Below are positions 8,001-58,861 of a DNA stretch of 64,000 nucleotides, in pieces. Source of the stretch: Patescibacteria group bacterium. Lineage in GTDB: Bacteria; Patescibacteriota; Microgenomatia; UBA1400; PJMF01. The notes beneath the pieces are model-generated. The model was not told the DNA's origin. It searched no databases and was given only the letters and a program-made list of their open reading frames with translations. Where the stretch lies: contig JAZQJV010000010.1 of assembly GCA_045541795.1 (NCBI GenBank), forward strand, positions 72,333 through 136,332. Reading direction: 5' to 3'. Each line of letters starts with the position of its first letter. The stretch's first letter is position 1. The position numbers and the translations under genes are program-made.

Positions 8001-8825
8001 CTATACTTTTCCTGGTTTTAATGAAGCAATCACTTGCTGTTCTAGGTCCTCATATTTTTCACTTATCGTGGGTCGCTGCTGCAATTCCCAGATCTGGATA
8101 AAAACAAACGCCCGGTTGCAGGCTTGTACCAGTGCTTCCACAAAACCCACCATCCCGTCGCGGTATCCTTTTTGCCGACAATAACGCCGATAAAATTCCA
8201 TCACCATTTTGCGCAAGATCGTCCCGGGCGTGACCAGCGGCCAGCCGTCGGCGACGTAAGCCTCCGCCTCCTTGATCGTCCAGCGGCTACTTTTAGCTAA
8301 ATTAGCCGCCGTATCCCGGTGGGTAAAATGTAGTAAGGGATTACTCAAATCTCCTGTTTTACCTTCATATATAGGACTTTCATGAATAGCACCTTTCCAG
8401 CCAGTCAGCGCCCCGCGCCGGAAAATCCTAGTCACGTAGTCTTCTTGCCAGCCGCCAGCCGTCATCGCCTCACCATAATGATAATCTTGCCGGCGCGCTC
8501 TCCAAGCACTAATTTGCGGATCAGCCAGCTTGTCGCGCATCTCCGCCAGCAGGGCACCATTTACCCGCTCGTCAGCATCCAAGTAAAAAACCCATTCAGT
8601 CTGTACCTCAGCCAAAAACTCACTCCGGATCGCAGCGAAATCCTCACTAGCAGTTTCCCGCCACGAAGCACCATTTTCCCGGGCCACCTGCTCGCTTTCA
8701 TCCCGGCAATGATTGCCGACCACCCACACAGCCTGCGCCCAAAAAAGCTGAGGCAAAAGATGGCGCAAATTGGCGGCCTCATCACGGGCGATAATGATCA
8801 GTGTCACTGACAATTGATTCGTCAT
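8001..8825 (-). CDS. Glycosyltransferase family 2
   Basis: 274 aa with VTLIIIARDEAANL and YLDADERV (DXD) motifs. The extended -10 TGGTATAAT (rc of 8833-8841) lies 7 nt from the start codon. Confidence 0.75.
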   Translation of the reverse strand: MTNQLSVTLIIIARDEAANLRHLLPQLFWAQAVWVVGNHCRDESEQVARENGASWRETASEDFAAIRSEFLAEVQTEWVFYLDADERVNGALLAEMRDKLADPQISAWRARRQDYHYGEAMTAGGWQEDYVTRIFRRGALTGWKGAIHESPIYEGKTGDLSNPLLHFTHRDTAANLAKSSRWTIKEAEAYVADGWPLVTPGTILRKMVMEFYRRYCRQKGYRDGMVGFVEALVQACNRAFVFIQIWELQQRPTISEKYEDLEQQVIASLKPGKV

Positions 8826-8912
8826 GTGGGTATTATACCACAGGTGCCAACGAGTCCCAAACTACAAACTAACTAATGACAGTTGGTAATAATTAGTTAC
8901 CAGCAATTTATA

Positions 8913-9013
8913 ATTGAGTATTTATTGTATACAATAAATTAATTTAATACCTATACATCAGCATTTTTAAAATACGTTATTTTCATTAGCAGACGGAGTG
9001 TGAGACTGCTAAT
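8913..9013 (+). repeat. Copy A of a roughly 100-bp dispersed intergenic element, about 80% identical to 15652-15751
   Basis: Contains a perfect 20-bp palindrome ATTTATTGTATACAATAAAT (8920-8939) and a hairpin ATTAGCAG-N13-CTGCTAAT (8985-9013). Aligned by eye to copy B. Confidence 0.7.
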
Positions 9014-9033
9014 CATTGCGTCACAATTGCCAC

Positions 9034-9061
9034 TTGCATTTTTGCGGAAGGAGAGTATAAT
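9034..9061 (+). promoter_or_regulatory. Sigma70-like promoter for cassette 1: TTGCAT, 16-nt spacer, TATAAT
   Basis: TTGCAT at 9034-9039 and TATAAT at 9056-9061, about 18 nt upstream of the ATG at 9079. Confidence 0.5.
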
Positions 9062-9078
9062 GATCACAGAAAGTAATT

Positions 9079-9780
9079 ATGGAGAGTGAGAGCAAAAAAA
9101 CTAACCAGTTTCTCAATCAGCATCAAATTAGTATTGCAATTGTAGTCGTGGCAATTGTGAGTGTAATCATGTTTATTTGCTGGGAAGTAACAAAAAAAAA
9201 GAAATCAACATATGAACTAGCTCAAAACCCCGTCATTATCAGTAACAACTCTGAACAAATAGTACAAGCCAATCCTGAAGTCGGTATCCGCGGCGACGAA
9301 CCTACAACTACCGACCTTTACGAACAAATCGGAACACAAGAAGTCGACACTGATCATGAACTCAATCAACTTTTAGCTGGTCTCGGCATCGAATTGGAAC
9401 AAGTCTGGGATAACTCCAATCTCCAAGCCCATACAGCACTAGAAAACTATCTTGCTGAGCATCCAGAAAGCCCAATGGTTCCCCCAGGAACCTACGAAGC
9501 CTATGCTATCTATGAGGGTTCGCAAGAAAAAGATTTGGCAGCTTTACAAAACGCTGGCTACACAGTCGGCGGCAAAATTTACCCCGATGGCACTTATGAT
9601 GCCACCTTTTTGGGATTCAACTACAAGATGAAATACGATCAACATCACGTTTATTTTGATGACAATGCTAACGATGGCATTAGTGCCTGGAATGAAGCAC
9701 CGTATGTATGGGACGGCGAAGTGCTTCATATTGCTGTGCATGCAATCGACGTTTACTTGGTCAGAACAGGAGATGTCTAG
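9079..9780 (+). CDS. Cassette 1 protein A: N-terminally membrane-anchored hypothetical protein, paralog of 27388-28035
   Basis: 233 aa. TM segment ISIAIVVVAIVSVIMFICW. The C-terminal region PPGTYEAY...YDQHHVYFDD aligns with PPAGTYQAV...YDDHYLYLED in the 215-aa protein. Confidence 0.6.
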   Translation: MESESKKTNQFLNQHQISIAIVVVAIVSVIMFICWEVTKKKKSTYELAQNPVIISNNSEQIVQANPEVGIRGDEPTTTDLYEQIGTQEVDTDHELNQLLAGLGIELEQVWDNSNLQAHTALENYLAEHPESPMVPPGTYEAYAIYEGSQEKDLAALQNAGYTVGGKIYPDGTYDATFLGFNYKMKYDQHHVYFDDNANDGISAWNEAPYVWDGEVLHIAVHAIDVYLVRTGDV

Positions 9781-9789
9781 GATATAACC

Positions 9790-10887
9790 ATGTCAGAGCC
9801 GATACTAAAAAAAATAAACTTTCAAACTATCACTATTTTTAGTATTGTCCTTGTAGTTATTGTTGCAGCCGCCGGAGTGTGGCAAAATATCAACTTGTCT
9901 CATCAACAATCACCAGCAAATGTCAGTCATGAAAATGTCGATGCCGACGATTTCGTTTATCAAGATCCCACTCTCACCACAAGCAATGAGCTATTAGAAG
10001 AAATCACACCGCAAAACTTCAACGAACAGCTCGCCTACAGCTGGGCCTGGCATCAATATTATGCCAGCACCAGTCTTCCAGAAGCTAAAAGTAGGACCAT
10101 AACTGAGCTAGCAAATGCCAAAAAAATGTTTGACGCTGGTGATCAAAATGCCACCTTAAACTGTTTTTTTATGTGGGATATCATCGGTGATGAAACATTA
10201 GATGCTGACAGCCGCAATCTTGCCCGTGAACTTTGTCATAACGGCAAGCAAAACGTTGTTTACGACTCTAGTTTCAGCCAATACTGGGAGCGCCTCCAAA
10301 AAGGACAGGAACAAATCGAAAGCGAACAAGGAGCATTCTGGTACTATTACCCAGATCGTGTCGTCGAGGATTATACCTTAGAATTAGGTGAAAAATATCA
10401 AAATTACATCTCCGGCAATGCAAACATCACACCAGAACAAGATAACACCGCTGCCGCTAGACAGTTGAAAGACTATGCTCTCGTGATGATTGATAAGTCA
10501 GATCTCGCTTACGGCGTCGCTAATCCAAACTACACCAAAGACCTAAGACTCAAAAATGAAAGTCAGCTGCAATTTATGGCCCTGGGCGAAAAACTCTTTT
10601 CTTGGTATATTGCTTACGGTGACCAGAATTTTGATACTGAAAGCAAGTGTTTACTGCGTGAAGCGTTGACACTTTATTATGATCGATTCACTTCCGCCTT
10701 GGAAGAAAGTTTCCTCACTCGCCTACCAATATGTAATGAACCATCAACTTACTTAGTACAACTTGTAAATCGCGGGCATTATGATAAAATAGAAATTAAT
10801 CCTGTCTTGGTATTGGAAGATGTCCGAGCAGGTGAGGCAACAGATAATTACGAAAAAATAATTATAGCGGGACTACTAAGTCAATGA
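9790..10887 (+). CDS. Cassette 1 protein B: N-terminally anchored hypothetical protein, paralog of 20226-21713
   Basis: 365 aa. TM segment TITIFSIVLVVIVAAAGVW. The block AYSWAWHQYY aligns with AYTWAHHQYY in the 509-aa protein. Confidence 0.6.
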   Translation: MSEPILKKINFQTITIFSIVLVVIVAAAGVWQNINLSHQQSPANVSHENVDADDFVYQDPTLTTSNELLEEITPQNFNEQLAYSWAWHQYYASTSLPEAKSRTITELANAKKMFDAGDQNATLNCFFMWDIIGDETLDADSRNLARELCHNGKQNVVYDSSFSQYWERLQKGQEQIESEQGAFWYYYPDRVVEDYTLELGEKYQNYISGNANITPEQDNTAAARQLKDYALVMIDKSDLAYGVANPNYTKDLRLKNESQLQFMALGEKLFSWYIAYGDQNFDTESKCLLREALTLYYDRFTSALEESFLTRLPICNEPSTYLVQLVNRGHYDKIEINPVLVLEDVRAGEATDNYEKIIIAGLLSQ

Positions 10888-13800
10888 GGAAGGCAAATAA
10901 AACTTACCAGCTCTTCATCAAAGTCGTATTGCCGATTATCGCTTTTGTGTTTATCAGCTTTTTTGCCGCCAAAACCATACTTCAAACTGTCGATGCTAAA
11001 GGCGGGAGCGGACCAGGCAGTGCTCTCGATCCTCAAAATCCAAGCGGACCGATTACTTGTACCACAGGAGATGGACATGGAAATCCTAGCGAATGGGATG
11101 CTGTCACTCCAGCTTGGCGGCCTAGACTAAAAGAAGTCATCCAAAAATGTCGAAATTCTGATGGATACTATAACTATGATCAGCAATGGCTATTTGTGCG
11201 CAATGCAATCGTCTATCCGTATTCAGAATACAAGTCTACTAGCTATTGGGACGTAATCCCTGATAAGATTGCTCCTAGTGCCAGCGTCTACGGCAAAGAA
11301 ACTGGCTACAGAATGCATTGGTTTTACACCACCAATAATTCAGGAAGCTGTAGCGATCATAAGTATTGGAATCTCTGGATCCGTGATTTTGACTGTGATG
11401 GTGTCACTCACCAATGTAGTGAGCTAAATAACGGCAAAAACGTCTTTAAATCTGGACCAGATATCTTCAACGAAGTTTGTGAGCGAGCTTGTAATTATTA
11501 TGAACAGCTCACCAATATGGCATGTAAAAACGTCGTCAGTCAAAACTGGTCGCCAATGGGCACACTTCCCGAAGACCTCGCAAAAAGTGCTCTCACATTT
11601 GACACCACCAATCTAGAAGGAATAATGGATGATGCTGCTTCATATGCAACACTCATCAACAAAGAATTATCAGCATACACTGAATACATTATGAACTATC
11701 TCACTCCAGATAGCAAGTTTATGGTAATCCCAGATAGCGCCAACAGTCTCGAAACTGCACGTTCACAACTTGCTAACCTTGATGCAGTGATCAATACTAT
11801 CCGTAACACACATACAAATTACTCTACTCAGGCTCAGCAAAAAATCAATTCGGCCAATAGTGTGATTAGCTCGCTCACTAGTCAACTCTCCAGTGTTGAT
11901 TATAACGTCAACACTCAGTGTGGGTTTTATGCATCCAACAGGTGCTATACTTCAGGCAATCTGGACAGTAGTTGTAGTGATGCTAGGACTTATCGCTCAC
12001 AACTTGCCAACAGGCGTAGCCAGTATTACAGCTTATTAGATAGTCTCTCCACCAGTACCAGCACTATTGAATATTATGAAAGCGAAGTCAAAAAGCTTCA
12101 ATCTTACCTCAATACATCGATGCAAAACTGTGCCAGCAAAACTAAAAGCGGCTATGGATGTGACTATGCGACAGCCTGTCATCAATACATAAGTATCGAA
12201 CAAACTATAGATGGAGCAAAAGATAGTCTACAAGAAGCCAAAGAACAGTTGTGGGCTGTCAAAACCGATAAAGTTGATTTTGACGACAATACTGAAGCAA
12301 AACTGCGTGAATACGCTAAACAATTTACTCGAGCTTATAACAGCTATAAAGTCGCCGCCGGTAATACCAAAATAGACTGGACGTTTGGTTACTGTTCCGC
12401 CGACGGCTCCGGTGATAGCCCAATGTGTAATAATATCAAGATCATGCAAGGCTGTCTCGAGTTTGTCGGCAAAGCAGAAGCCCAGCTCGCTTCAGAAGGA
12501 AAAGTCAATGCTGTCACCAAAGGGTCACTAAGCGTACATATTGAATCACACAGTTGCGATACCCGCTCAGACTTCATCGACGTCAACTGTTCCATTAAGG
12601 GCTGTTATCAGACTAGAGAGTGGTGCCGTAACATCAATCAATTCTACGTTGAACCAGATGAAAAATGTCCATTGGGAGGTAATGGCCGGATCGCTTACGT
12701 GAATTCTATCCAAAATCCTGGTAGTACTCTGCGATGCCGTAAATGCAATACCTCATTTACTACCTGTGAAGAAGCAGCTAAGTACGCATGGCTTTATGAT
12801 TCCAGCGAACCAAAGGGAAGCGGCAAAAACAATGAAGTTAAAAACTGGGTAGAAGGTTACTACGACAGCAGTTTTGATGCTAAGCGTTATTGGGCCATCC
12901 GTACCAATTGTGAAGCCGACGAAGATCATCAGATCAAAAAATGGATCCAAGATGAAGACGGTCATGCACCCATCCAATGTACGGTCGCTTGTGTACAAAA
13001 CTGTGACGAGATCCGCGATCCCGATACTCAGCAATACATGGAAGAACCAGACCGTGAACCTTTCGTTAATAGTTCTAGCAAATATTATCATACCAGCAGC
13101 TGTTATCGCAAAGGCTGGAATCCAGTTATCAAAGTCGTCGAAGACATTCACGGAATTCAGACCACATGTATTGGCGGCTGTCTCGAGCCTTGCGGAGATG
13201 TACGTCAGTTACAATGGGGTGCAGTACGCAACTATACAGTGAACGGTTATACCTATAAAGACTATGCTCAAAGCACTCGAGATAAATATTTCTTACCAGA
13301 AGACACCAATTGTACCGCTGCTCAATTAGCAACCAAGACTAGCGTCAGCATTCGCGATCACTACAATCGGAGTTACAGCAAGAAATGCTACTCTGACAAA
13401 TGTCGTAAAGACTGTAAATCCATTTGTGAAGCCAGAGGGTGGAAGACTTCAGACTATGACTGCGGATCCGGTATACCCAACTACGCCAGCGTCGACGGCT
13501 GTACTTGTGTAGCAAACTGTTCTGGGGATGCTTGTCGCAATCAAGGTTACTGGCCAGCCAGTCACGTCTGTGCACCAAATGAAGAATCACTCGGCACAGA
13601 GACCATCATTGATAAAAACGGTCACTCAATTGTTTGTCACAAAGGATGCAAAGCCAAAACTCCAGGTGACGAACTTAAGTGTGCTCCAGGCGTACCAGTA
13701 TATAATGGCAGCAGTGTCACGGTTAATGGTGTGACACAAACCGATTTTGTCGGTGATGTTTATATCAACAGTGATGAAACCTTCTATAATGAGCGCAATG

Positions 13801-15644
13801 CCTGGCTTATCACCAGAGACCAAAGAAGATATCCTGCCTATACACTGTCAGGCGAATCACGGGTGCGCAACGTGATTATTTCACCGCTCGGCTATGAGAA
13901 AAAAGAAAGAACCAGCCCATATCAAATCTGTCGTTGGGGTGAGTGTCTCGTCAATGACGCTGCTGAGCGCGCAGATGAACTTAATGCCCGTAATCAATGC
14001 GATAAAAAATACAAGTATTACAGCGCCATCGACGATGGCTGCCGTCGACACTACCAATATATAAGCTACTGCTTTGACGATCCGCCGCCAAATAACTGTC
14101 ATTCGACCTCTTGTGGCCAACAATGCCGCTGCGGTAGGCAGTATTATAGTGGTAGCGATGATGACTCATGTCACTATGCTGGCTGTGTCACCTGTGTGCC
14201 TACCTGCTATACAGAATCAGATCTCGGCTTTGGCATCCGTGAGGTTCCTTGTGTCGGACCAGGTGGAGAAAGAACCCATTCAGATTTCTGTTCCACTAAC
14301 AAATACACCAGCTATGAAGCCTGCAAAGTGCCTACATGTAATAACGTTGATGATGTCCTCGATGTCATGGATCGTACCAATTTCAAAAAATGTGGTGTCG
14401 AGAACCCCAAAGATAGAATTACCCAACTCGATCAAGCGCATGAATATCTAGGTGAGCAAGCGTATGGTGTTGGTGGTATCTACCAGTGCACCGATAGAAT
14501 TCCCAACGCTCCTGACGCTATCGCATATCCAGATGAATGTACAGGTTTAGAAAACCACTGTTTCCACGTCTTACCTTGTGGAGAAGTGCAAGTTGCGGAG
14601 TCCAAAGGACAAATCGGTTCCAAAGTCAGTGCCACTCACAAGGATGAATTCGGACAAGTAACGGGTACTGGCGGACTGCTTTGCGGTGGCGGCGCATGCA
14701 AAGAAAGCGATCATTACATCTTTATCCCTGGTACAGAATCCACCAATTATCAAGTTGGTGTCGCCGGCCAACGTTGTGGACGTTATTGGGAAGTCTCAGA
14801 ACCGCAATGGTCGATGGCTGGGGGCACATCCAATATTTACACCGCAGAAGGCTCATCTAAGCGTAGTAAAGAAAAGGGAGTAACTACTGACCGTTGTGGC
14901 AACGCTAATGGTGTCGAACTCACTAGAGGTAGCTTCAAACTTGAAGATAGCGTACCGCTAACATACGAATTCTTTGAACAAGCCATGGATATTTCTAAGC
15001 TTCCCAGATGTAGTGATGTTACCATAGATACAGACGAGTTTTACATCTGTAAAGAAAACGGTGACTTTAGTACTTCCGATCTTAATCCCGACCTACTTCG
15101 TGCCGACCGCAATCTCGTAGTTTTCATGGACTCGGAAAGTGGTACTTTCACCATTGATACTCAAATAGAAACTGCCCGTGATTACTTCAAAGCCTTTATC
15201 AGTCGCGGTAAAATGGTGATCGACTGGGGCGTAGGCACCTGGCCAGAAGCAGCCTACGAACGCAACCTTGGTTGTGCTGATACCGACACCGCTGACTTAC
15301 AAGGCTTCTTTGCCGCTGATGAAATTACTTTCCCCAGCAAATTGGTAGCAGATTCTCAAGCAAATGCCTTTAACGAAAACCTGCGCTGTGATCGGCAACT
15401 TGTCATCGCTGGCAACCTTATCCAGTGGGGAGATAAGGCGCTCAATCTCACCCGTACATTCCGTGGTTGCGTCGGTGGCAATGAAGACCTTGCTGCTTGG
15501 AAAGCAGCCGAACAAAATCCAGCTGTTTACCGTGATTTCAATAAGATCATGTCACCGTATGTGTTCTACCAACGCCCCGACTTCCAAAATTCCGCTCCCG
15601 AATGGATGAAAACGAGCAATACCGAAAGAATTGAGGTAAATTAA
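10884..15644 (+). CDS. Cassette 1 protein C: giant secreted cysteine-rich protein (1586 aa), paralog of 21710-27388
   Basis: N-terminal signal anchor. More than 100 Cys in CxxC and C-x-C patterns. The C-terminal roughly 400 aa are conserved with the 1892-aa paralog: TADLQGFFAA...VIAGN(L/I)(I/V)QWG...RTF(R/K)GCVGGN...YQR(P/S)DF(Q/N)(N/S)S(A/V)P(E/N)W(M/L)KT. The start overlaps the upstream stop (ATGA), implying translational coupling. Confidence 0.7.
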   Translation: MRKANKTYQLFIKVVLPIIAFVFISFFAAKTILQTVDAKGGSGPGSALDPQNPSGPITCTTGDGHGNPSEWDAVTPAWRPRLKEVIQKCRNSDGYYNYDQQWLFVRNAIVYPYSEYKSTSYWDVIPDKIAPSASVYGKETGYRMHWFYTTNNSGSCSDHKYWNLWIRDFDCDGVTHQCSELNNGKNVFKSGPDIFNEVCERACNYYEQLTNMACKNVVSQNWSPMGTLPEDLAKSALTFDTTNLEGIMDDAASYATLINKELSAYTEYIMNYLTPDSKFMVIPDSANSLETARSQLANLDAVINTIRNTHTNYSTQAQQKINSANSVISSLTSQLSSVDYNVNTQCGFYASNRCYTSGNLDSSCSDARTYRSQLANRRSQYYSLLDSLSTSTSTIEYYESEVKKLQSYLNTSMQNCASKTKSGYGCDYATACHQYISIEQTIDGAKDSLQEAKEQLWAVKTDKVDFDDNTEAKLREYAKQFTRAYNSYKVAAGNTKIDWTFGYCSADGSGDSPMCNNIKIMQGCLEFVGKAEAQLASEGKVNAVTKGSLSVHIESHSCDTRSDFIDVNCSIKGCYQTREWCRNINQFYVEPDEKCPLGGNGRIAYVNSIQNPGSTLRCRKCNTSFTTCEEAAKYAWLYDSSEPKGSGKNNEVKNWVEGYYDSSFDAKRYWAIRTNCEADEDHQIKKWIQDEDGHAPIQCTVACVQNCDEIRDPDTQQYMEEPDREPFVNSSSKYYHTSSCYRKGWNPVIKVVEDIHGIQTTCIGGCLEPCGDVRQLQWGAVRNYTVNGYTYKDYAQSTRDKYFLPEDTNCTAAQLATKTSVSIRDHYNRSYSKKCYSDKCRKDCKSICEARGWKTSDYDCGSGIPNYASVDGCTCVANCSGDACRNQGYWPASHVCAPNEESLGTETIIDKNGHSIVCHKGCKAKTPGDELKCAPGVPVYNGSSVTVNGVTQTDFVGDVYINSDETFYNERNAWLITRDQRRYPAYTLSGESRVRNVIISPLGYEKKERTSPYQICRWGECLVNDAAERADELNARNQCDKKYKYYSAIDDGCRRHYQYISYCFDDPPPNNCHSTSCGQQCRCGRQYYSGSDDDSCHYAGCVTCVPTCYTESDLGFGIREVPCVGPGGERTHSDFCSTNKYTSYEACKVPTCNNVDDVLDVMDRTNFKKCGVENPKDRITQLDQAHEYLGEQAYGVGGIYQCTDRIPNAPDAIAYPDECTGLENHCFHVLPCGEVQVAESKGQIGSKVSATHKDEFGQVTGTGGLLCGGGACKESDHYIFIPGTESTNYQVGVAGQRCGRYWEVSEPQWSMAGGTSNIYTAEGSSKRSKEKGVTTDRCGNANGVELTRGSFKLEDSVPLTYEFFEQAMDISKLPRCSDVTIDTDEFYICKENGDFSTSDLNPDLLRADRNLVVFMDSESGTFTIDTQIETARDYFKAFISRGKMVIDWGVGTWPEAAYERNLGCADTDTADLQGFFAADEITFPSKLVADSQANAFNENLRCDRQLVIAGNLIQWGDKALNLTRTFRGCVGGNEDLAAWKAAEQNPAVYRDFNKIMSPYVFYQRPDFQNSAPEWMKTSNTERIEVN

Positions 15645-15651
15645 AAAAAAT

Positions 15652-15751
15652 ATTGAGTATTTATTGTGCACGATAAATGATTTTATACCGGTGCATCAAT
15701 ATTTTTAAAATACCTTAATTTTATTAGCAGACAATGGCCGCGACTGCTAAT
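15652..15751 (+). repeat. Copy B of the roughly 100-bp element, forming a direct repeat with copy A and flanking cassette 1
   Basis: ATTGAGTATTTATTGT... near-palindrome ATTTATTGTGCACGATAAAT, then hairpin ATTAGCAG-N13-CTGCTAAT at 15723-15751. Confidence 0.7.
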
Positions 15752-15761
15752 TTCTCCGCAC

Positions 15762-16949
15762 TCACATCCTTCCCGTCACGTACAGCAAACCGTTTTCGTC
15801 TCGCCGTCCCCAATCACCAGTCCGATACCAGCCGCCCTGCAATACTGCCGCTGTGCGCCCGCGGTCTTGATAATACCCACTCATCACTTGCGGACCGCGC
15901 ACCCAAATCTCACCCTCATTTTCATTGCTGCCGCCCACAAATTTCACTTCTATATTTGCCAGCGCTCGGCCAACGCTCGCCGACACACCTAAGTGACGGT
16001 AACCGCTAGCAATGCCCGGCGCGCATTCCGTGCAACCGTATGTGGCCAGCACTTCTATCCCGGCCAAAGCCCACTTCTCTTGTATACTCACCGGTACTGC
16101 CTCGCCGCCACAGATGATCTGATTAAGCGCCCCACCAAAATACTGCCGCCAGCTATTCTGGTCGCCGTGCTCACTGCTGGCTCTTTCCAATTTGCCTGTC
16201 AATTTTTGCAGTATCAGCGTGGGCATTACTACTACCGTCGGCCGAGCAGCCTGCAATAAGCCTTCCGGATGTCGCCAATCCAGCGGAAAAAATATCTGCG
16301 CTCCGCAACTGCACCACCACAAAAGGACTGACAGTCCCAAAATATGCTCACCCGGCAGCCACGAGAATACCGCGCGATCACCACGAAAATCATGCAAAAA
16401 TTGCCCGCCCCAAATCACGGCCAACACATTTTTTTGCGTGAGGGCCACCACTTTGGGCTGACCCGTAGTGCCAGAAGTGGTGATCAAGACAGCCAAATCA
16501 TCACCTTGAGGCTGGAAGCACGTGAGCCTCTGCCGCGCTTCAGGCCGAGCAGGGGAGTGCTCTACTGTCTGGATTACCGTATCCGGCTGGCACTTGTCAC
16601 TATCACTTACCAAGCAAACCGCTTGGCGGAGCCGCCAGGCCGCCAAAATGCTCACCAACCACCAGTAACCAGGCTCCAGCCGCAAGCTCACTTTTTGCGG
16701 CCGTTCGGGATCAAATTTTTCCTGCCAAGCTGCAGCCGTGTTTTCTACGTCGGCCACCAGCCCGTCATACGTCACTGTCCTCGTTTTCCCGTCCTCATCA
16801 GTGTAAACGCCAGCCAGCTGCCCACCGTATTCTTGCCGTAAAAAATCCAAAAACTCACTAATCTGTACATGTGCGCGCGGACAAAAAGCACGCTGTGGAT
16901 AATCACCAAGATTTACCCCAGGCGCTAGCCCCTCATACACCATGCTCAT
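15762..16949 (-). pseudogene. AMP-dependent synthetase/ligase (acyl-CoA ligase family), 3'-truncated; C-terminal subdomain missing
   Basis: TSGTTGQPK (A3 motif) and YRTGD (A8 motif) are present. The ORF ends at ...YVTGRM, directly before the conserved GRxDDxIK region. The stop codon lies 11 nt from the copy B hairpin. Confidence 0.55.
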
Positions 16950-30460: not shown

Positions 30461-30577
30461 ATGCTATATTATACCACACTTTTTGGCATTTTATGGGGCA
30501 ATTTATAGCAAAATATATCAATTTTCACTTTTCTCGATCATAAATAACTATTTTTACCGGTGTATCGACAAAAATCT

Positions 30578-34844: not shown

Positions 34845-34899
34845 AAGACCTCTATTATACCACCAAAAAAGGCATTTTTCCCGGGCAATTTTTGGCTCG

Positions 34900-39387: not shown

Positions 39388-39430
39388 GTCTGCTTTCTTT
39401 TATCCTGTCAAGATTCCCTATTATACCACA

Positions 39431-41370: not shown

Positions 41371-41623
41371 AATTTCTTTCCGTTTTTTGTATTTCTTAAT
41401 TTTGTGTCAGCCGCGAAAGCTGGTCAACCCTCCTATTATATCACACTTTTGGCTAATTTCCACAGGCAAAAACCGCTAAATTGGCGCTATTTAATTATAA
41501 TATTATAGGACTTTAACCACTTTTTACAATAATTTTCCAGGCGAAAAACCAGCATAATATCCTATAATATATTTTTATGATTGAAAAAAGTCTGGAACAT
41601 TAAAAATATTATAGGATTAGAAA

Positions 41624-42016
41624 TTAGCGTTCCACGCCGCTTTGCCCAGCTTCCGGATTGATCAGTCTATAAGAAAGATTATCACTAGCTAAGCTGACAT
41701 CGCCCAAAAGCACCACTGCCGCTGACGGGATGCCATCCACCCGCCAAAAATTCTCCCGCCAGGCAGTCGCCTGTACCCATAATTTTCGAGCCAAGCCACC
41801 CTGAGCCAGCCAGACGTAAGCCCGCTCACCTTGTATATGCACGCTGTCAGCCGGCAAAATTACTTGTGTCTCACCTTCGCGAGCGTACACTTTTAAGGCT
41901 GGAATCCAAGATAAGACCGGGGAAAGCAGCGTCCGGCAGTTGCACCAAAACGAAAATGCCCAGATGACGCTCATCCAGACAGCCAATAAATGCCAGCCGC
42001 TTGCATTTTTAGACAT
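41624..42016 (-). CDS. Hypothetical exported/membrane protein
   Basis: 130 aa. N-terminal hydrophobic segment HLLAVWMSVIWAFSFW. Confidence 0.4.
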   Translation of the reverse strand: MSKNASGWHLLAVWMSVIWAFSFWCNCRTLLSPVLSWIPALKVYAREGETQVILPADSVHIQGERAYVWLAQGGLARKLWVQATAWRENFWRVDGIPSAAVVLLGDVSLASDNLSYRLINPEAGQSGVER

Positions 42017-43033: not shown

Positions 43034-44077
43034 TTACCTTTCTGCAGGGGTCAACACCCCATAATACTCCAACATTCGTGCTAGTCCCTCACGAAACGGC
43101 ACGACAGGCTCCCAGCCCAAAAGCGTTTTGGCTTTAGTAATGTCTGGCTGGCGCCGCAGCGGATCATCGGCCGGCAAGGGCTTATAATCTATCATCTCGC
43201 TATCACGGCCAGTGATCTGGTTGACGATCTGCGCTGTCTGCAAGACAGTAAATTCGCCCGGATTACCCAAGTTGACCGTCTCGCCGGCCAAATCACTACT
43301 GATAAATCTGATGATCCCCGCCACCAGATCGTCAATATAGCAATAAGAACGAGTTTGGCTACCATCACCGTAAACCGTTAATTTTGTGCCCGCCTTCACT
43401 TCACTGATAAATTGCGGTAAAATCCGCCCATCGTGCAAATCCATGCGCGGCCCGTAAGTATTAAAGATCCGGATAATTCTCGTATTTAAACCAAAATCCC
43501 GGTAGAAAACACCGCAAATCGTCTCGCCTAGACGTTTGGCTTCGTCATAACAGCTGCGGATACCGTTAGGATTGACATTACCCCAATAAGTTTCTACCTG
43601 GGGATGTATCTGCGGATTGCCATAAGCTTCACTAGTACCGGCAAAAAGCAAGCGCGCTGCGGGTGCATTGGCCGTCAACCACTGACAAATATTATGCAGC
43701 GCCCAGGTATTGACCAAATAAGTCTCCACCGGGTGTGCTTGATAACCTGGCGGTGATGCTGGTGAGGCAAAATGTAAGACTACATCCACCTGACCGTAAG
43801 TTTTTTTGATCTCATCCAAGTGCTGGAGCAACAAGGCTTGGTCATTAAGATCAAACTCCAAAAACTGAAAGCGTTCATGACTGCGGACCGCCCGCAAATT
43901 GTCTTTGTGACCCGTAATATAATTATCAATACCGATCACCTGAGCGCCAGCACTCAGGATTCGTTCCACTAAATGCGAACCAATAAATCCTGCTGCACCA
44001 GTAATAATTACTACTTTTGAGTTAAAAAATTGCTCATCTTGCATCTGTCCCTTCTTATAGCAATCTTGCTCTTTCAT
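43034..44077 (-). CDS. NAD-dependent epimerase/dehydratase, UDP-glucuronate decarboxylase (UXS)-like
   Basis: ITGAAGFIGSHLVERIL...YDEAKRLGETICGVFYRDFGLNTRIIRIFNTYGPRM matches the UXS/ArnA decarboxylase family. Confidence 0.7.
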   Translation of the reverse strand: MKEQDCYKKGQMQDEQFFNSKVVIITGAAGFIGSHLVERILSAGAQVIGIDNYITGHKDNLRAVRSHERFQFLEFDLNDQALLLQHLDEIKKTYGQVDVVLHFASPASPPGYQAHPVETYLVNTWALHNICQWLTANAPAARLLFAGTSEAYGNPQIHPQVETYWGNVNPNGIRSCYDEAKRLGETICGVFYRDFGLNTRIIRIFNTYGPRMDLHDGRILPQFISEVKAGTKLTVYGDGSQTRSYCYIDDLVAGIIRFISSDLAGETVNLGNPGEFTVLQTAQIVNQITGRDSEMIDYKPLPADDPLRRQPDITKAKTLLGWEPVVPFREGLARMLEYYGVLTPAER

Positions 44078-46394
44078 TCATTTCTGCTTCTATTTCTTCC
44101 CGATCGCGGCCGTATTTGAGCCTGGAGATTTGTTTGATCGCGGCCGCCAGTTGCGGATTCATCCTAGCCTGCACTTGCGCCATATCTTTTTCCAGCGACA
44201 TTGAAAAAGGCGGTACCGGCTCATTTTTGACGATCGTTTTCACATAGACATGATATTTTTCAATATTGGTCAGGTCAGTCTCAGTAAATATCGGGGCAAA
44301 TTCATGCTCGAGGTACTGCGCATCCGTCACTCCCACCCGGAAACTCACAATCGTCCCCACATTACCAAAGACGGCGTTGCGGATCTCATCATCTATTTGA
44401 GCAATAAACTGATTAGCGACAATCAGATTTAAACGGTACTTGCGGGCTTCAGACAAAATGGTGGCAAAATCCTCCGTGGCGTAATTTTGGAACTCATCCA
44501 CGTACAAGAAGAAATCTTCACGCTGATCCATCGGCACATCCTGACGACTCATCGCTGCCGTGAGCACTTTGGGTACCAAAATCAAACCCAAAAACTTCGC
44601 GTCCTCCTCACCCAAAATACCCTTAGATAAATTGCACAAAATGATCTTTTTCTCATCCATCGCCCGGCGGAAATTAAAGGCGGACACCGGCTGGCCGATA
44701 ATATTGCGCATCGTTTTATTGGTCACAAACCGGCCAAACTTAGAAACAATATAATCCAACACCTCTGATTTGTGGAAATCTGATGTCTGAGCCATCTGAT
44801 CTGTCCAGTAACGTTTTACCATTGGATCATCAATCTGCGGCAGCAATTCCTCAACAAATTTATTATCAGTGATAGCCCGGACTAATTCAATAAACGTCGC
44901 TCCCGGACGATACATGATCGTCAGCATCACGTTGCGGATCGCGTGTTCAAAACGAGGGCCGATAATACCTTGATGATGCGGATCATAAAGTTTATACATC
45001 AAGCCAATCACGCTCCCGACGACAAACTGTTTTTGTTCTTCGGTCTCGGCTTCCATGATATTCATCCCCAAAGGCCGAGCTAAGTCTGAAGGATTAAAAT
45101 AAATCACGTCTTCCGCTCTCTCTGGCGGGATCATCTGCAAAATATCCTCCACAAACTCACCATGCGGATCAATGGCGCACACGCCCGAGCCGGCTTCAAT
45201 GTCTTGCAAAATCATTTCTTTCAAAAATTCTGATTTACCAGTACCAGTTTTACCGATAATGTACATATGCCGACGCCGATCTGGCAGCGACATGTAAATA
45301 TTGCGCACATCGCCTCGATAAATTGATTTACCCAAAAATAAACCGCTTTCGGGAATTTCCCGCGGTGCAGGGGCATTTTTGGCATACAAAAACCGGATAT
45401 GATGCGTTTCTACCGTTTTATTGGGGAAATGAATAATGGTCGCCAGCTCTTCAGAATTAAAAGTCAGCATCCCGCTGTCGCCAAAAAAAGCCGGATAACG
45501 ATAAACAAAATCCTTCATGAACAGACGTTTAAAAGGCACGAGCGCTTTTTGTAAACCCGTATAAGCAGTATCAAACTGCGAGAAACTAGCGATGATGTTT
45601 TTGAGATGTGACTCCGCCGAGTAGCGATCAGGACTACACACGCACACACGGATGATGACCTTAAAGATGGATTTATCCACCTTAGCCAGCATTGATTGAT
45701 CTTCCTTAGACTCCGTCTCATCGTGGACGCGAGCCGTGCTTTCAGACTGACGATCTTTGCGTTTTTCGATCTGGCGGATCACACGCCGCCGGAAACGGTC
45801 GCCTGCAGGCTGGATCACAAACTGGACAATTGCTCCTTCATCCGTATTCATTTTGGACAGTGCAGACGTGAGGCCTTGCAAGCCATCATTAGCTAACTCT
45901 TTGTAAGTCTTGATCGGCATGCGATTATCCAAAGCTTTTAGCCTAGCAAATGCCACCTGGCCGGTCTTCGTCCAGATATTTGGAGACACCACCGGCATAA
46001 TATCGGCTTCGGGGTAGCTGGCGTGAATACTTTTTTCGATCAAATCACGAAGTTCCCGCGGTAAATTCACATAAAAAGCAATGTCTTCTTTTTTTGCCAC
46101 CACTTCAATCGTAAAAAACGGCGGTCTTTTAATCAGCGATTCCCAAGTAGTCAGCTGTAAAGAATGCAGCATATCAAACATCTGCTCAGCGGCTTCAATT
46201 TTCACCTCATTATCCTTCGGCAAACGGATCAGCAGCGTCTCCATTTCCTCAGATATTCGCCGCCGGCCGCGCGCGCGCCATAAATGGTATAAATAATAAA
46301 TAGTAAAACAAAAAACAGCGATATATCCAAATATAATAAGCACCCAGCTTACCAGTGCCCAAGTGTCAATATAGAAGTTAGGTTCCACTTGCAT
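44055..46394 (-). CDS. Membrane-anchored P-loop NTPase of the HerA/FtsK/TraD-VirD4 (DUF87-like) superfamily
   Basis: N-terminal TM helix. Walker A IIGKTGTGKSEF, Walker B FFLYVDEFQ, and a LNLIVANQ arginine-finger region. Confidence 0.55.
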   Translation of the reverse strand: MQVEPNFYIDTWALVSWVLIIFGYIAVFCFTIYYLYHLWRARGRRRISEEMETLLIRLPKDNEVKIEAAEQMFDMLHSLQLTTWESLIKRPPFFTIEVVAKKEDIAFYVNLPRELRDLIEKSIHASYPEADIMPVVSPNIWTKTGQVAFARLKALDNRMPIKTYKELANDGLQGLTSALSKMNTDEGAIVQFVIQPAGDRFRRRVIRQIEKRKDRQSESTARVHDETESKEDQSMLAKVDKSIFKVIIRVCVCSPDRYSAESHLKNIIASFSQFDTAYTGLQKALVPFKRLFMKDFVYRYPAFFGDSGMLTFNSEELATIIHFPNKTVETHHIRFLYAKNAPAPREIPESGLFLGKSIYRGDVRNIYMSLPDRRRHMYIIGKTGTGKSEFLKEMILQDIEAGSGVCAIDPHGEFVEDILQMIPPERAEDVIYFNPSDLARPLGMNIMEAETEEQKQFVVGSVIGLMYKLYDPHHQGIIGPRFEHAIRNVMLTIMYRPGATFIELVRAITDNKFVEELLPQIDDPMVKRYWTDQMAQTSDFHKSEVLDYIVSKFGRFVTNKTMRNIIGQPVSAFNFRRAMDEKKIILCNLSKGILGEEDAKFLGLILVPKVLTAAMSRQDVPMDQREDFFLYVDEFQNYATEDFATILSEARKYRLNLIVANQFIAQIDDEIRNAVFGNVGTIVSFRVGVTDAQYLEHEFAPIFTETDLTNIEKYHVYVKTIVKNEPVPPFSMSLEKDMAQVQARMNPQLAAAIKQISRLKYGRDREEIEAEMNERARLL

Positions 46395-49610: not shown

Positions 49611-49653
49611 CGTGAAAGTCCTATAATATTTTAAATATTATAGGACTTTCACG
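49611..49653. repeat. 43-bp near-perfect palindrome (21-bp arms) built around the TCCTATAATAT motif
   Basis: CGTGAAAGTCCTATAATATTT-T-AAATATTATAGGACTTTCACG, checked base by base. Confidence 0.8.
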
Positions 49654-49800
49654 TAAACATCCTATAATGTTTGCGGTAATATTATAGGATTTTCACCTTA
49701 AAGACCTATAATATTTCCAAAAAATTATAGGGACTTTAGGTTAAAATCCTATAATATTCTACCTCGAGTGAGCGTTAACATCCCATAATAAGATAATTAT
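49611..49800. promoter_or_regulatory. Cluster of about 8 copies of the (G/A)TCCTATAATAT(T) motif in alternating orientation within the rnpA/gyrB intergenic region (candidate oriC or regulatory array)
   Basis: Copies begin near 49617, 49637 (rc), 49668, 49682 (rc), 49703, 49728 (rc), 49755 and 49785. Confidence 0.5.
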
Positions 49801-50135
49801 CAAAATTCCAGGTGTGGCCCTGCTATTTTTGGTCACTCACAGCGTCAACAGCCCATAGTTTGCGCCGCCGTCCCCAAACCCCTCAAATTTTGCGGAGAAA
49901 AATTACGCGCCGCCCGCCCCGCCGCGCGTCCCGCGCGTCGTGATCACCGCATATTTTGCAATATTAATTAATAGTAAAGTCGATTTTGTCATCGTTATTA
50001 ACGCAAAATTTGCGGTAATAACTGTGTCAATTCTCGTTCTCCTTATACTGTCTATTTTCTCACGAAATGCCCCATTTCCGGCCGCAAAAGCCCGAGCTTG
50101 ACAAAATCCCACATCAATGATAAAATCATGATCCT

Positions 50136-55603: not shown

Positions 55604-55663
55604 CTGTATATCAGCATTTTTCTCGAGCGTAAATCATTAGCAGTCATCTGTAATGACTGCTAG
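55604..55663 (+). repeat. Copy C (partial) of the dispersed element seen at 8913-9013 and 15652-15751
   Basis: TGTATATCAGCATTTTT...CATTAGCAGTCAT-ctgta-ATGACTGCTAG hairpin with 10-bp arms. Shares the TATACATCAGCATTTTT and CATTAGCAG/ACTGCTA blocks. Confidence 0.55.
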
Positions 55664-55777: not shown

Positions 55778-55798
55778 TACCCACATTAACAATTTAAG

Positions 55799-58020: not shown

Positions 58021-58861
58021 AGGCATTCTTGCCTGGAGAGCAATAATTACCGCAAAATTATCGCAGTCCTCTACTCTGTCTCCCCTCACCTACCAAAATT
58101 CACTACACTTAGTCCAGATCAACACCAAAATTTATAATTATTTGACTATTACCGCACGGCAATTATGCAAAGATATTAACTTTTGACTCTAAATACAGCC
58201 GCCAAATATCAAGTCTCACAGTACCTTTTCCAGGCGTTACTCCCCTACTTCACCAGATATACGCTACCATCTACCCGCCTTCTAACAATTTATTTACGCA
58301 CTATTGCTGCGGGACTGACTCGATTATTGCATGATTCCTATATTAATAATTATTAGTAATTATGCAATAATTAAATTCCGCAGTTTCGCCAAAACTGATA
58401 ATAGTTTTACACCACAAGAGTAATTTCTATTAAGTCCTTACAAAACACTCATAAGTACTCAAAAGTGCTAAAATTATAAATTTTAAAATTTTACCGATAT
58501 ATAGCTATTTTTTCATCACTTAAAAATTTAGCAGCGATTCCGCATGAGTGATAAAATTGGCCATTTATATCTGGAAATGACCTAATAAGTGAAAAGTAAG
58601 TTAATCATTGCTATTTTTTAGCTTTTCAGCCTAATTTTCTAGTATCCTAAAAATTTTTATTATTAATTTTATCAAACATTAAAAAATTCAATTTTCGCAT
58701 AAATGTAAGAAAAAAAATACTATATTCACGCACTATTACCGCAGATCTCAAGAAATTACCTGCTTCTGAAATTGCGCATTAATTAATTACCGCTTTTTAG
58801 CCCGTATATCGCCATCTTGCCGCAATTGCGCAAATTACTCCCCATCATCTCTTCCAAACGG

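What the first reader, a model, noticed from the sequence alone, without database searches (positions are those of the whole stretch)
8913..15751. Cassette 1 is bracketed by roughly 100-bp direct repeats containing a palindrome and a hairpin
Copy A (8913-9013) and copy B (15652-15751) are about 80% identical and in the same orientation. Each carries a 20-bp palindrome (ATTTATTGTATACAATAAAT in A; a 1-mismatch version in B) and a hairpin ATTAGCAG-N13-CTGCTAAT. Together they flank the A-B-C cassette exactly. This is the signature of an inserted or recombining cassette (recombination sites or insertion footprints), or of a shared operator/leader module. Cassette duplication and gene-order permutation (see the other cassette) could proceed through such repeats.
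Basis: seen in the sequence. Interest (0 to 1): 0.7.

Follow-up and report, generated by a model that had tools for sequence, protein, structure and literature searches.

The report
Heat-shock operator modules flanking a variable cassette
The two 100-bp repeats are real, but their "hairpin" is a CIRCE heat-shock operator (the binding site of the HrcA repressor), so they are copies of a regulatory module at the edges of a fast-changing surface-protein gene cassette in a Patescibacteria (CPR) bacterium, not recombination sites.

Summary
Copy A (8913-9013) and copy B (15652-15751) are direct repeats, 85% identical outside a 9-nt spacer, and they bracket genes A-B-C.

The "hairpin" is TTAGCAGAC-N9-GACTGCTAA, a CIRCE operator (consensus TTAGCACTC-N9-GAGTGCTAA). 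In 120 metagenome loci this G-variant lies next to groES (34), hrcA (27), clpB (9) and hsp20 (9). A Saccharibacteria hrcA carries it 24 nt upstream of its start.

The window holds two more copies of the 3' half of the module (55.6 kb and 63.9 kb). Related Patescibacteria carry it before gyrB, queA and tRNA-Ala, and between convergent genes. Relatives keep a cassette at this site without either repeat, or inverted, or lack it. There are no inverted ends or target duplications, no recombinase in the cassette, and the spacers differ (2/9).

The cassette is nevertheless a recombining unit. A second strain has 95-99% identical flanks but A/B/C proteins only 60/57/79% identical. Divergence begins inside copy A's CIRCE and ends about 55 nt before copy B.

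Best reading: paralogous promoter/operator modules that probably place the cassette under HrcA control and act as conserved homology at its edges. Whether this genome has hrcA, and whether HrcA binds here, are untested.

The parts
8913..9013 (+). Copy A of the ~100-bp module. It lies between the divergent GT2 promoter and the cassette promoter.
   Evidence: 100% identical over 8903-8994 in strain L142
8920..8939 (.). Perfect 20-bp palindrome ATTTATTGTATACAATAAAT. Candidate operator for an unknown dimeric factor; specific to the A/B subfamily.
   Evidence: found only in copies A and B of the window and of L142/L143, in about 950 kb searched
8944..8973 (+). Candidate promoter P1 inside the module: TTAATA, 18 nt, TAAAAT. 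The -10 ends 12 nt before the CIRCE. The span overlaps the conserved mid box CCTATACATCAG (8950-8961).
   Evidence: consensus scan; mid box shared by copies A and D, L014, L016 and L121, with looser versions in copies B and C, L010 and L012. Promoter activity is inferred, not shown.
8986..9012 (.). CIRCE-type operator A: TTAGCAGAC GGAGTGTGA GACTGCTAA
   Evidence: 15/18 to the canonical consensus, 0 expected by chance; the G-variant is tied to groES/hrcA/clpB/hsp20
9034..9061 (+). The cassette's own promoter P2 (TTGCAT, 16 nt, TATAAT); the ATG follows 17 nt later.
   Evidence: read; the same CTTGMW-N17-TATAAT motif precedes gene A in L018/L019 and L142
9079..9780 (+). Gene A: 233 aa, N-terminal membrane anchor, no family match
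9790..10887 (+). Gene B: 365 aa, N-terminal membrane anchor, no family match
10884..15644 (+). Gene C: 1586 aa, 78 cysteines (4.9%), N-terminal anchor or signal sequence. A giant surface-type protein.
   Evidence: C-terminal region homologous to C' of cassette 2 (family D5)
15652..15751 (+). Copy B of the module. It fills the gap between the convergent C and AMP-ligase genes, and no co-directional gene lies downstream.
   Evidence: nearly identical, spacer included, in L142/L143
15659..15678 (.). Palindrome in copy B: ATTTATTGTGCACGATAAAT (one arm mismatch; centre GTGCAC still palindromic)
15724..15750 (.). CIRCE-type operator B: TTAGCAGAC AATGGCCGC GACTGCTAA
55603..55664 (+). Copy C (mid box plus CIRCE TTAGCAGTC ATCTGTAAT GACTGCTAG at 55637-55663). 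It lies after gyrA and 135 nt before tRNA-Ala.
   Evidence: the same position holds a CIRCE in L009 and L010 and in strain L147
63926..63988 (+). Copy D (CCTATATATCAA box plus CIRCE TTAGCAGTC TTAACACTA CTCTGCTAA at 63961-63987). The downstream gene lies beyond the window.
58528..58554 (+). Degenerate CIRCE (3 mismatches) in the AT-rich, ORF-poor region
   Evidence: identical in L147
8832..8860 (-). Promoter of the divergent GT2 gene (extended -10 TGTGGTATAAT, 6 nt before the ATG at 8825). It marks the left edge of sequence shared with L018/L019.

Best explanation
Copies A and B are two paralogous copies of a ~100-bp intergenic regulatory module. They are not recombination sites.

The module has three parts: (i) a 20-bp palindrome, so far seen only in the A/B subfamily; (ii) an AT-rich box (CCTATAYATCA, then a T-run) that includes sigma-70-like hexamers; and (iii) a CIRCE operator, TTAGCAGnC-N9-GnCTGCTAA.

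Proposed mechanism (inferred). HrcA, the class-I heat-shock repressor whose activity depends on GroEL, binds the CIRCE. In copy A the CIRCE lies 12 nt downstream of a candidate promoter P1 and 21 nt upstream of the cassette's own promoter P2. Transcription of the A-B-C surface-protein cassette from P1 would therefore be repressed when chaperone capacity is sufficient and released under proteotoxic stress, while P2 gives basal expression. Copy B has no gene to drive. It is either the leader module of a neighbouring cassette in the donor arrangement, carried along with the cassette, or a bound-protein or hairpin barrier between two convergent transcription units.

The modules are the only conserved non-coding blocks at the cassette's edges. 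They also serve as homology for allelic replacement of the cassette between strains.

Shown here: the repeat; the identity of the CIRCE; the wider family and its contexts; the absence of the repeats in relatives; the strain-level replacement and where divergence begins and ends. Inferred: HrcA binding in this organism, promoter P1, the regulatory outcome, and use of the modules as homology arms.
For: (1) Operator identity.
- All four window copies have 9-bp arms and a 9-bp spacer. Copies A, B and C match the canonical CIRCE at 15/18 positions, against 0 expected by chance (consensus from PMC7464140 and PMC3842655).
Of 144 ORFs starting within 115 nt of the repeat, 34 are Cpn10/GroES, 27 HrcA, 9 ClpB, 9 Hsp20 and 5 sigma-70 family with RpoH-like N-termini.
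- The exact A/B arm pair (TTAGCAGAC...GACTGCTAA) precedes ORFs whose N-termini read as DnaK (L064), GroES (L072) and Lon (L120).
- In Pacebacteria locus L007 the variant precedes clpB and lon.
- In Saccharibacteria MAG locus L002 it lies 24 nt upstream of a 241-aa HrcA (PF01628, 56.5 bits).

(2) Selection acts on arm sequence, not on pairing.
- Arm sequences are invariant while spacers vary.
- A and B are 85% identical outside the spacer and 2/9 inside it.
- RNA folding of A and B is unremarkable (z = -1.1 and -1.4), and the minimum-energy fold of A does not even use the CIRCE stem.

(3) It is a family, not a cassette-specific pair. Copies C and D in the window, and L014 (before gyrB, with the 5' box as well), L016 and L006 (before queA), L121 (convergent gap), and L009 and L010 (after gyrA) all carry the module.

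(4) Geometry. In metagenome loci with clear promoters the -10 ends 1-12 nt before the CIRCE. In A and B, TAAAAT ends 12 nt before it.

(5) The repeats are not needed for the cassette to sit here. L018/L019 have genes A and B divergent from GT2, with the two promoters about 25 nt apart and no copy A. L001 has gene C convergent with the AMP-ligase, with an unrelated 73-nt spacer.

(6) Edges of a recombining unit.
- Between the window and L142/L143, flanks are 95-99% identical and copy A is 100% identical up to TTAGCAGAC. Then the spacer and everything downstream differ.
- Identity returns at about 15592.
- A, B and C are 60, 57 and 79% identical at the protein level, against 95% and 94% for the flanking GT2 and AMP-ligase.
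- Copy B's spacer is identical and copy C's is 8/9 between strains, so spacers are not intrinsically hypervariable.
Against: - No hrcA, groES or dnaK gene lies in the 64-kb window, and the rest of the genome could not be reached, so the presence of HrcA in this organism is unverified.
- None of the four window CIRCEs adjoins a chaperone gene, which is atypical for CIRCE.
- The region between the T-run and the CIRCE is not conserved across the family, so a shared -10 cannot be assigned. P1 is a weak 9/12 consensus match in AT-rich DNA, where such matches are common.
- The CIRCE-to-P2 distance differs between strains (21 nt against about 40 nt), which argues against direct control of P2.
- Copy B and L121 sit between convergent genes, where a promoter/operator has no obvious target.
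- In strain L147 the mid box of copy C has about 5 changes in 36 nt, against 2.3% genome-wide. At least there, only the CIRCE looks constrained.
- CIRCE positions turn over between close relatives (L144-146), so some copies may be non-functional.
Confidence: 0.6

Rival explanations
1. Footprint of how the cassette arrived. The whole segment 8847-15764, with a module at each end, was imported or rearranged as one unit. Possible routes are replacement from a donor in which cassettes were tandemly arrayed, each behind its own module; Campbell-type integration of a circle through a shared module; or tandem duplication followed by loss of the second gene set. On this view copy B is the orphaned leader of a lost or never-acquired next cassette. 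The flanking arrangement is historical rather than functional.
For: - Compared with L018/L019 and L001, sequence homology stops right after the GT2 promoter (about 8846) and resumes at the AMP-ligase stop codon (15765). The modules therefore lie 57-66 nt and 13 nt inside the substituted segment.
- The window's AMP-ligase is 395 aa against 412 aa in L001, so its C-terminal tail was replaced too.
- The window's cassette proteins are only 25-33% identical to those of L018/L001/L020, although GT2 is 76% and the AMP-ligase 67% identical.
- Cassette GC is 44%, against 49-52% in the flanks.
- The 5' palindrome is confined to copies A and B.
- Copy B has no downstream gene.
Against: - No tandem cassette array was seen in any locus fetched, and cassette 2 has no module.
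- A and B differ by 15% plus a completely different spacer, so any duplication is old. Both copies are then kept almost unchanged between strains, which suggests each is maintained.
- This rival is compatible with the best explanation: it concerns origin, the best explanation concerns function.
Confidence: 0.2
2. Site-specific recombination sites. The 9-N9-9 inverted repeat is the core site of a tyrosine recombinase (for example the XerC/D-like gene at 55983-56918, which sits next to copy C). Direct repeats A and B would then allow excision or exchange of the cassette, as in an integron or a dif-flanked module.
For: - Direct repeats bracket the cassette exactly.
- The strain-to-strain divergence boundary falls at the junction of the left arm and the spacer of copy A.
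- A tyrosine recombinase lies near CIRCE copies in the window, L009 and L010, and in L010 a CIRCE lies 35 nt upstream of the recombinase gene.
Against: - The spacers of A and B share 2/9 positions. From established knowledge of tyrosine recombinases, strand exchange needs matching overlap regions.
- A 9-bp spacer is atypical for such sites.
- The same inverted repeat precedes groES, hrcA, clpB and hsp20 in dozens of unrelated contigs, which identifies it as CIRCE.
- There is no recombinase within or next to the cassette.
- Relatives show the cassette present without repeats, inverted without repeats, or absent with no single-copy scar.
- The recombinase/CIRCE neighbourhood is explained by the conserved gyrA, tRNA-Ala, xerC-like gene order.
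Confidence: 0.06
3. A small non-autonomous mobile element (of MITE, REP or Correia type) that happens to carry a CIRCE and has inserted independently on both sides of the cassette.
For: - There are several copies per 64 kb, all intergenic.
- The relatives L018/L019 and L001 lack the element at both orthologous sites, as expected for insertions.
- CIRCE positions turn over among close relatives.
Against: - Neither copy A nor copy B has terminal inverted repeats or target-site duplications.
- At both sites the local intergenic DNA is replaced rather than interrupted.
- Copies are 55-85% identical, with conservation concentrated in the operator arms, unlike a recently spreading element.
- Zero matches in the viral contig collection.
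Confidence: 0.07
4. A structured RNA (a leader, small RNA or terminator) in which the palindrome and the hairpin act as RNA stem-loops.
For: - The arm mismatch in copy B's palindrome would be a G-U pair on the + strand, and the palindrome's centre changes symmetrically.
- Several family members have a T-run soon after the CIRCE stem (L121, L010, L012).
- From established knowledge, CIRCE in mRNA can also affect transcript stability.
Against: - No Rfam family matches.
- Folding z-scores for A and B on the + strand are -1.1 and -1.4.
- Stems are conserved in sequence with no compensatory changes, and loops are free to vary.
- The symmetric centre change has roughly a 20% chance expectation (my own estimate).
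Confidence: 0.05

Closest known systems
CIRCE, the operator of the HrcA heat-shock repressor (consensus TTAGCACTC-N9-GAGTGCTAA; PMC7464140, PMC3842655)
   Same: The architecture is identical: 9-bp inverted arms and a 9-bp free spacer. Copies A, B and C match 15/18 consensus positions. The G-variant found here is the form that precedes groES, hrcA, clpB, hsp20 and lon in many metagenomic contigs, and hrcA in a Saccharibacteria MAG.
   Different: None of the four copies in the window adjoins a chaperone gene; their neighbours are a giant surface-protein cassette, a convergent gene gap and tRNA-Ala. The density (4 in 64 kb) is far above the 2-5 per genome that I recall as usual, which is my own knowledge. 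The operator is embedded in a larger repeated module that has an extra palindrome. In copy A it lies upstream of the gene's conserved promoter rather than between that promoter and the start codon.
Integron gene cassettes with attC sites (my own knowledge)
   Same: Imperfect inverted-repeat sites, in direct orientation, bound a gene cassette. The central part of the site is variable.
   Different: There is no integrase or attI next to the cassette. The cassette is 6.7 kb with three genes and its own promoter. The inverted repeat is demonstrably a CIRCE. Relatives carry the cassette without the sites.
Intergenic repeat modules that carry regulatory signals, such as Neisseria Correia elements or enterobacterial REP/ERIC (my own knowledge)
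   Same: Short repeated intergenic units, present or absent between relatives, that can bring promoters, terminators or protein-binding sites to neighbouring genes.
   Different: No terminal inverted repeats or target duplications. Copy number in the sampled DNA is low. Conservation is concentrated in a known operator rather than across the whole unit.
Allelic replacement of surface-antigen loci through conserved flanks, for example capsule locus switching in pneumococci (my own knowledge)
   Same: There is a sharp drop from 95-99% to 60-80% or unalignable identity exactly across a surface-protein locus. Divergence begins and ends in conserved sequence at its edges.
   Different: One conserved edge is a 100-bp regulatory module rather than a housekeeping gene. 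The organism is a Patescibacteria member with uncharacterised cysteine-rich giant proteins.

Membership tests
CIRCE / HrcA operator | Inverted repeat with 9-bp arms and a 9-bp spacer | tested here: met
   Copies A, B, C and D all have the 9-N9-9 form
CIRCE / HrcA operator | Arms match TTAGCACTC / GAGTGCTAA | tested here: met
   15/18 in A, B and C, with 0.00 expected in shuffles. The symmetric C-to-G variant is itself associated with groES (34), hrcA (27), clpB (9) and hsp20 (9) among 144 adjacent ORFs.
CIRCE / HrcA operator | Located in the promoter or leader of class-I heat-shock genes (groESL, hrcA-grpE-dnaK) | tested here: not met
   The neighbours are the A-B-C cassette, the AMP-ligase 3' end, gyrA/tRNA-Ala and a Mur-ligase upstream region. 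No chaperone gene lies in the window.
CIRCE / HrcA operator | Operator lies just downstream of a -10 element (overlapping or following the transcription start) | tested here: inconclusive
   TAAAAT ends 12 nt upstream of the CIRCE in A and B. However, this -10 is not conserved in C, D or other family members, and no transcript data are available.
CIRCE / HrcA operator | HrcA repressor encoded in the same genome | not testable with these tools
   Only 64 kb of the genome is available, and its own contig could not be retrieved. HrcA with this CIRCE variant is present in a Saccharibacteria MAG (L002) and in AT-rich metagenome contigs encoding short (232-242 aa) HrcA proteins like that of L002.
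CIRCE / HrcA operator | HrcA binding and heat-inducible de-repression | not testable with these tools
   Requires EMSA or ChIP, and expression data.
Site-specific recombination sites (att / attC / dif type) | Both partner sites share the crossover (spacer) sequence | tested here: not met
   GGAGTGTGA against AATGGCCGC, 2/9 identical
Site-specific recombination sites (att / attC / dif type) | Cognate recombinase encoded in or beside the unit | tested here: not met
   No recombinase lies between 4 and 30 kb. The nearest tyrosine recombinase is at 55983-56918.
Site-specific recombination sites (att / attC / dif type) | Presence/absence polymorphism with a precise single-site empty locus | tested here: not met
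   L021 lacks the cassette and has no module. L018/L019 and L001 have a cassette but no modules. L020 has an inverted cassette and no modules.
MITE / REP-like mobile repeat | Terminal inverted repeats and target-site duplication | tested here: not met
   The ends ATTGAGTATT... and ...GACTGCTAAT are not inverted copies of each other, and the flanks share no duplication.
Structured non-coding RNA | Match to a described family, or stable conserved fold with covariation | tested here: not met
   Rfam finds only tRNA-Ala. z-scores are -1.1 and -1.4. Stems are invariant in sequence.

The most novel reading that the evidence does not exclude
In this Patescibacteria lineage the HrcA/CIRCE switch has been recruited well beyond chaperone genes. 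Dozens of CIRCE-bearing modules per roughly 1-Mb genome would sit at diverse loci, including the hypervariable giant cysteine-rich surface-protein cassettes thought to mediate contact with host cells. Surface-protein expression would then be tied to proteotoxic or host-derived stress. The same portable modules would double as homology arms that let strains swap cassette alleles.
Probability: 0.25. Interest if true: 0.65.

Novelty: new variant of a known kind. Interest (0 to 1): 0.45.

Why it matters
Regulation in Patescibacteria (CPR) is almost unexplored, and three literature searches linking HrcA or CIRCE to this group found nothing relevant.

If the CIRCE copies are functional, one of the best-understood bacterial stress switches controls uncharacterised, strain-variable giant surface proteins in an ultrasmall, probably host-dependent bacterium. 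That gives a concrete and testable handle: HrcA binding, and heat-shock transcriptomics.

The strain comparison also pins down a 6.6-kb hot spot of allelic replacement, with divergence beginning and ending within tens of base pairs of known landmarks. This is useful for population-genomic studies of host-interaction genes.

For genome scanning, the practical lesson is that a "hairpin in a repeat" should be checked against known operator consensus sequences before recombination is invoked.

Tried and rejected
- Rfam gathering scan of the window: only tRNA-Ala.
- RNA folding of A, B, C and D: no strong signal for A or B.
- Sigma-54 reading of the mid box: GG-N10-GC fits only copy C (by eye), so dropped.
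- Intrinsic-terminator reading: no consistent T-tract after the stem on either strand.
- LexA-box reading of the 5' palindrome: the region upstream of lexA in L121 carries a CGAACATG-type motif, not this palindrome, and the palindrome occurs nowhere else in about 950 kb.
- My first genome contigs pattern forced ATCA-N4-TTTT. The hits L002, L015 and L017 turned out to be hrcA's own operator read on the opposite strand, with the "box" lying inside the hrcA coding start. They were therefore removed from the module family. Four hits inside ORFs of non-CPR genomes were treated as chance.
- Viral contig scans: the 16-mer gave only chance hits with no extension, and module plus CIRCE gave 0 hits.
- Exact look-ups of the window's own proteins (AMP-ligase, P0001, P0003) found no record, so the rest of the source contig and genome could not be read.
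- Pfam and NCBIfam found nothing for A, B, C, A', B', C', or for the 113-aa ORF that L142 carries next to copy A.
- Literature searches for TTAGCAGTC, and for HrcA with Saccharibacteria or Patescibacteria, gave nothing relevant.

Full report
**1. The observation**

The two copies are present as described. Copy A is 8913-9013 and copy B is 15652-15751, both on the + strand. The repeat finder reports them as families D18 and D7, and a pairwise alignment joins these with one 1-nt indel. Three sub-patterns of the element each occur exactly twice in the window, against 0.00 expected in shuffles.

The palindrome ATTTATTGTATACAATAAAT is at 8920-8939. Its one-mismatch version is at 15659-15678. The hairpin ATTAGCAG-N13-CTGCTAAT is present in both copies.

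Copy A lies between the divergent promoter of a GT2-like gene (8001-8825, minus strand) and gene A (ATG 9079). Copy B fills the gap between the stop of gene C (15644) and the stop of a convergent AMP-ligase gene (15762).

The cassette encodes two membrane-anchored proteins (233 and 365 aa) and a 1586-aa protein with 78 cysteines. None matches any family.

**2. More copies, and what the hairpin is**

A mismatch-tolerant search with the hairpin found two further sites on the same strand, at 55637-55663 and 63961-63987. Reading their flanks showed that the roughly 35 nt upstream are also related: CCTATAYATCA, then a T-run. A profile built from the four copies retrieves all of them at E below 1e-20, plus a weak fifth at about 58.5 kb.

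Written properly, the hairpin is TTAGCAGnC-N9-GnCTGCTAA. That is the architecture, and nearly the sequence, of CIRCE, the HrcA operator (TTAGCACTC-N9-GAGTGCTAA; PMC7464140, PMC3842655). Copies A, B and C match that consensus at 15/18 positions, with none expected by chance.

**3. Test of the CIRCE identification**

I took the ORFs that start within 115 nt on either side of the repeat and scanned 144 of them against Pfam.
- 34 are GroES.
- 27 are HrcA.
- 9 are ClpB.
- 9 are Hsp20.
- 5 are sigma-70 family, with RpoH-like N-termini.

Many of these loci show the classical layout: TTGACA, 17 nt, a -10, then 1-12 nt, the CIRCE, and a Shine-Dalgarno sequence with ATG. The exact arm pair of copies A and B occurs before ORFs whose N-termini read as DnaK, GroES and Lon (L064, L072, L120).

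In a Pacebacteria genome the variant precedes both clpB and lon. In a Saccharibacteria MAG it lies 24 nt upstream of a 241-aa HrcA. The G-variant is therefore a genuine CIRCE, and it is the form used in Patescibacteria.

**4. The organism and the module family**

GyrB and GT2 homologues place the window in Patescibacteria. The named hits are Patescibacteria group, Microgenomates group, Pacebacteria and Woesebacteria, and some MAGs are evidently mislabelled as Pseudomonadales.

A genome-contig scan found intergenic relatives of the module in several contexts:
- before gyrB (L014, which also has the 5' box ATTGAGCATTTGTTGT);
- before queA (L016, L006);
- after gyrA (L009, next to tRNA-Ala as in the window; L010, where the tRNA is on the opposite strand);
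- in a second metagenome locus, between convergent PduO-type adenosyltransferase and lexA genes (L121).

An alignment of 11 members shows invariant CIRCE arms and free spacers. It also shows a recurring TATAYATCA box, and no conserved -10 between the T-run and the operator.

One caution applies. ATCA and TTTT were imposed by my search pattern on the genome-contig hits. The unbiased support for the box comes from window copies C and D and from L121, which were found through the CIRCE alone.

The 20-bp palindrome is confined to copies A and B, and to their orthologues in a second strain.

**5. Are the repeats cassette boundaries?**

Synteny argues that the cassette does not depend on them.
- L018/L019 (GT2 76% identical) have genes A and B divergent from GT2, as in the window. 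The two promoters are only about 25 nt apart and there is no copy A; the window has about 190 nt between them.
- L001 comes from the same sample as L018 (AMP-ligase 67% identical). It has gene C convergent with the ligase, with an unrelated 73-nt spacer.
- L020 (GT2 66%) has the cassette inverted, with no AMP-ligase.
- L021 (GT2 62%) has no cassette at all.
- None of these loci contains a CIRCE within 3 mismatches.
- No module lies near cassette 2.
- There are no inverted ends or target duplications.
- The A and B spacers match at only 2/9 positions, while the rest is 85% identical. This speaks against a tyrosine-recombinase crossover site. It speaks for selection on the arms and the surrounding module.

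**6. The cassette does recombine**

A cluster look-up led to a 17-kb contig from a second strain, L142, and to L143.
- Flanks are 95-99% identical. GT2 is 95% and the AMP-ligase 94% identical at the protein level.
- Window positions 9013-12164 have no nucleotide match, and the rest of gene C is 60-81% identical.
- A, B and C are 60, 57 and 79% identical as proteins.
- Copy A is 100% identical from 8903 up to the left arm TTAGCAGAC. Then the spacer differs (AAGAAGCGA against GGAGTGTGA), the right arm is kept, and everything downstream is unrelated apart from the CTTGMW-N17-TATAAT promoter motif.
- On the right, identity returns to about 100% at about 15592, which is 55 nt before the stop of gene C, and runs through copy B including its spacer.
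- Copy C's spacer is 8/9 identical in the same strain. Spacers are therefore not intrinsically unstable, and the change in copy A marks where a replaced allele begins.
- Compared with L018/L001, the substituted segment is 8847-15764, with the modules just inside both ends.
- Cassette GC is 44%, against 49-52% in the flanks.

**7. Synthesis**

The repeats are two old paralogues of a promoter/operator module built around a CIRCE. The most likely mechanism is HrcA binding.

In copy A the operator lies 12 nt after a candidate -10 (TAAAAT), and upstream of the cassette's own conserved promoter. That would add a stress-released promoter to a basal one.

Copy B has no target gene. It may be the leader of a neighbouring cassette carried over with the segment, or a barrier between convergent transcription units.

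As the only conserved non-coding blocks at the cassette's edges, the modules also supply homology for allele exchange.

What is shown: the repeat, the CIRCE identity, the family and its contexts, the absence of the repeats in relatives, and the strain-level replacement. What is inferred: HrcA presence and binding in this organism, promoter P1, and the regulatory effect.

The weak points are these.
- No chaperone gene or hrcA lies in the window.
- The -10 is not conserved across the family.
- The CIRCE-to-P2 distance varies between strains.
- Two members of the family sit in convergent gaps.
- CIRCE positions turn over among close relatives.

**8. Verdict**

The recombination-site interpretation is not supported, the operator-module alternative is supported, and the idea of a recombining cassette is partly vindicated in another form.

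The element is a new variant of a known kind: CIRCE in an unusual composite module and an unusual genomic context. Interest is moderate.

Noticed in passing
window 49996-50023, 55876-55903, 59654-59708, 62395-62422, 62749-62776; related motifs 58040-58850: A second recurrent palindrome family, TATTAACGCAAAATTTGCGGTAATAA, with six copies. They lie before gyrB, after tRNA-Ala and between convergent genes. TTACCGCA-type half motifs are scattered through the AT-rich region. It may be another operator or a terminator family.
   Followed up: no
window 49633-49759; also 41492-41537, 41605-41633, 63594-63619: Three tandem 39-44-nt inverted repeats, AATATTATAGGAC...GTCCTATAATATT, in the 830-bp gap between rnpA and gyrB, with related copies elsewhere. 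The GC skew does not switch sign there, so it is not obviously an origin of replication.
   Followed up: no
window 56920-58880: A 2-kb ORF-poor, AT-rich stretch (35-40% GC) beside a tyrosine recombinase (55983-56918) and tRNA-Ala. It carries iteron-like ACTATATCAAACTATATCA pairs at about 57754, 57811, 57953 and 57989, and a degenerate CIRCE at 58528. It is conserved at about 98% in strain L147. It could be a remnant of an integrated element, or a non-coding RNA or regulatory region.
   Followed up: partly
window 8823-8842 (-), 30467-30478, 34852-34863, 39418-39430, 55768-55790: Many genes, and tRNA-Ala, are preceded by the same extended -10, TGTGGTATAAT. It often lies only 6 nt before the ATG, which suggests widespread leaderless transcripts in this organism.
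   Followed up: no
window 8000-30500 compared with L020 and L021: The whole neighbourhood is rearranged among relatives. The cassette is inverted and the AMP-ligase missing in L020. Both cassettes are absent, and the LytR-PDDEXK block inverted, in L021. Cassettes 1 and 2 sit at the two ends of the block that is inverted relative to L021.
   Followed up: partly
L142 8835-9176 (corresponds to an insertion between window 8845 and 8903): The second strain carries an extra 547 nt with a 113-aa ORF (no family match). Its leaderless-type promoter lies about 30 nt from copy A's palindrome and points away from it. The ORF is a candidate for the factor that reads the palindrome.
   Followed up: partly
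L144-L146 (relatives with GyrB 88% identical), e.g. L144 19135-19161: These relatives have no CIRCE after gyrA. They have one 57 nt upstream of the DUF5656 gene, whose window orthologue (58878-59648) has only the degenerate site 324 nt upstream. CIRCE sites are therefore gained and lost quickly in this clade.
   Followed up: partly
L012, L016, L021 (GCA_964418385.1 and similar); P0149, P0154: Contigs and proteins that clearly belong to Patescibacteria, by gene content and by their closest homologues, are labelled Pseudomonadales in public records. This is probably a taxonomy or binning error.
   Followed up: no
window 44055-46394: A 779-aa protein with HerA/TrwB/TraG-type coupling-protein domains, conserved in relatives (DUF8128 plus DUF87). 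It is consistent with the type IV secretion or conjugation-like systems reported for Patescibacteria.
   Followed up: no
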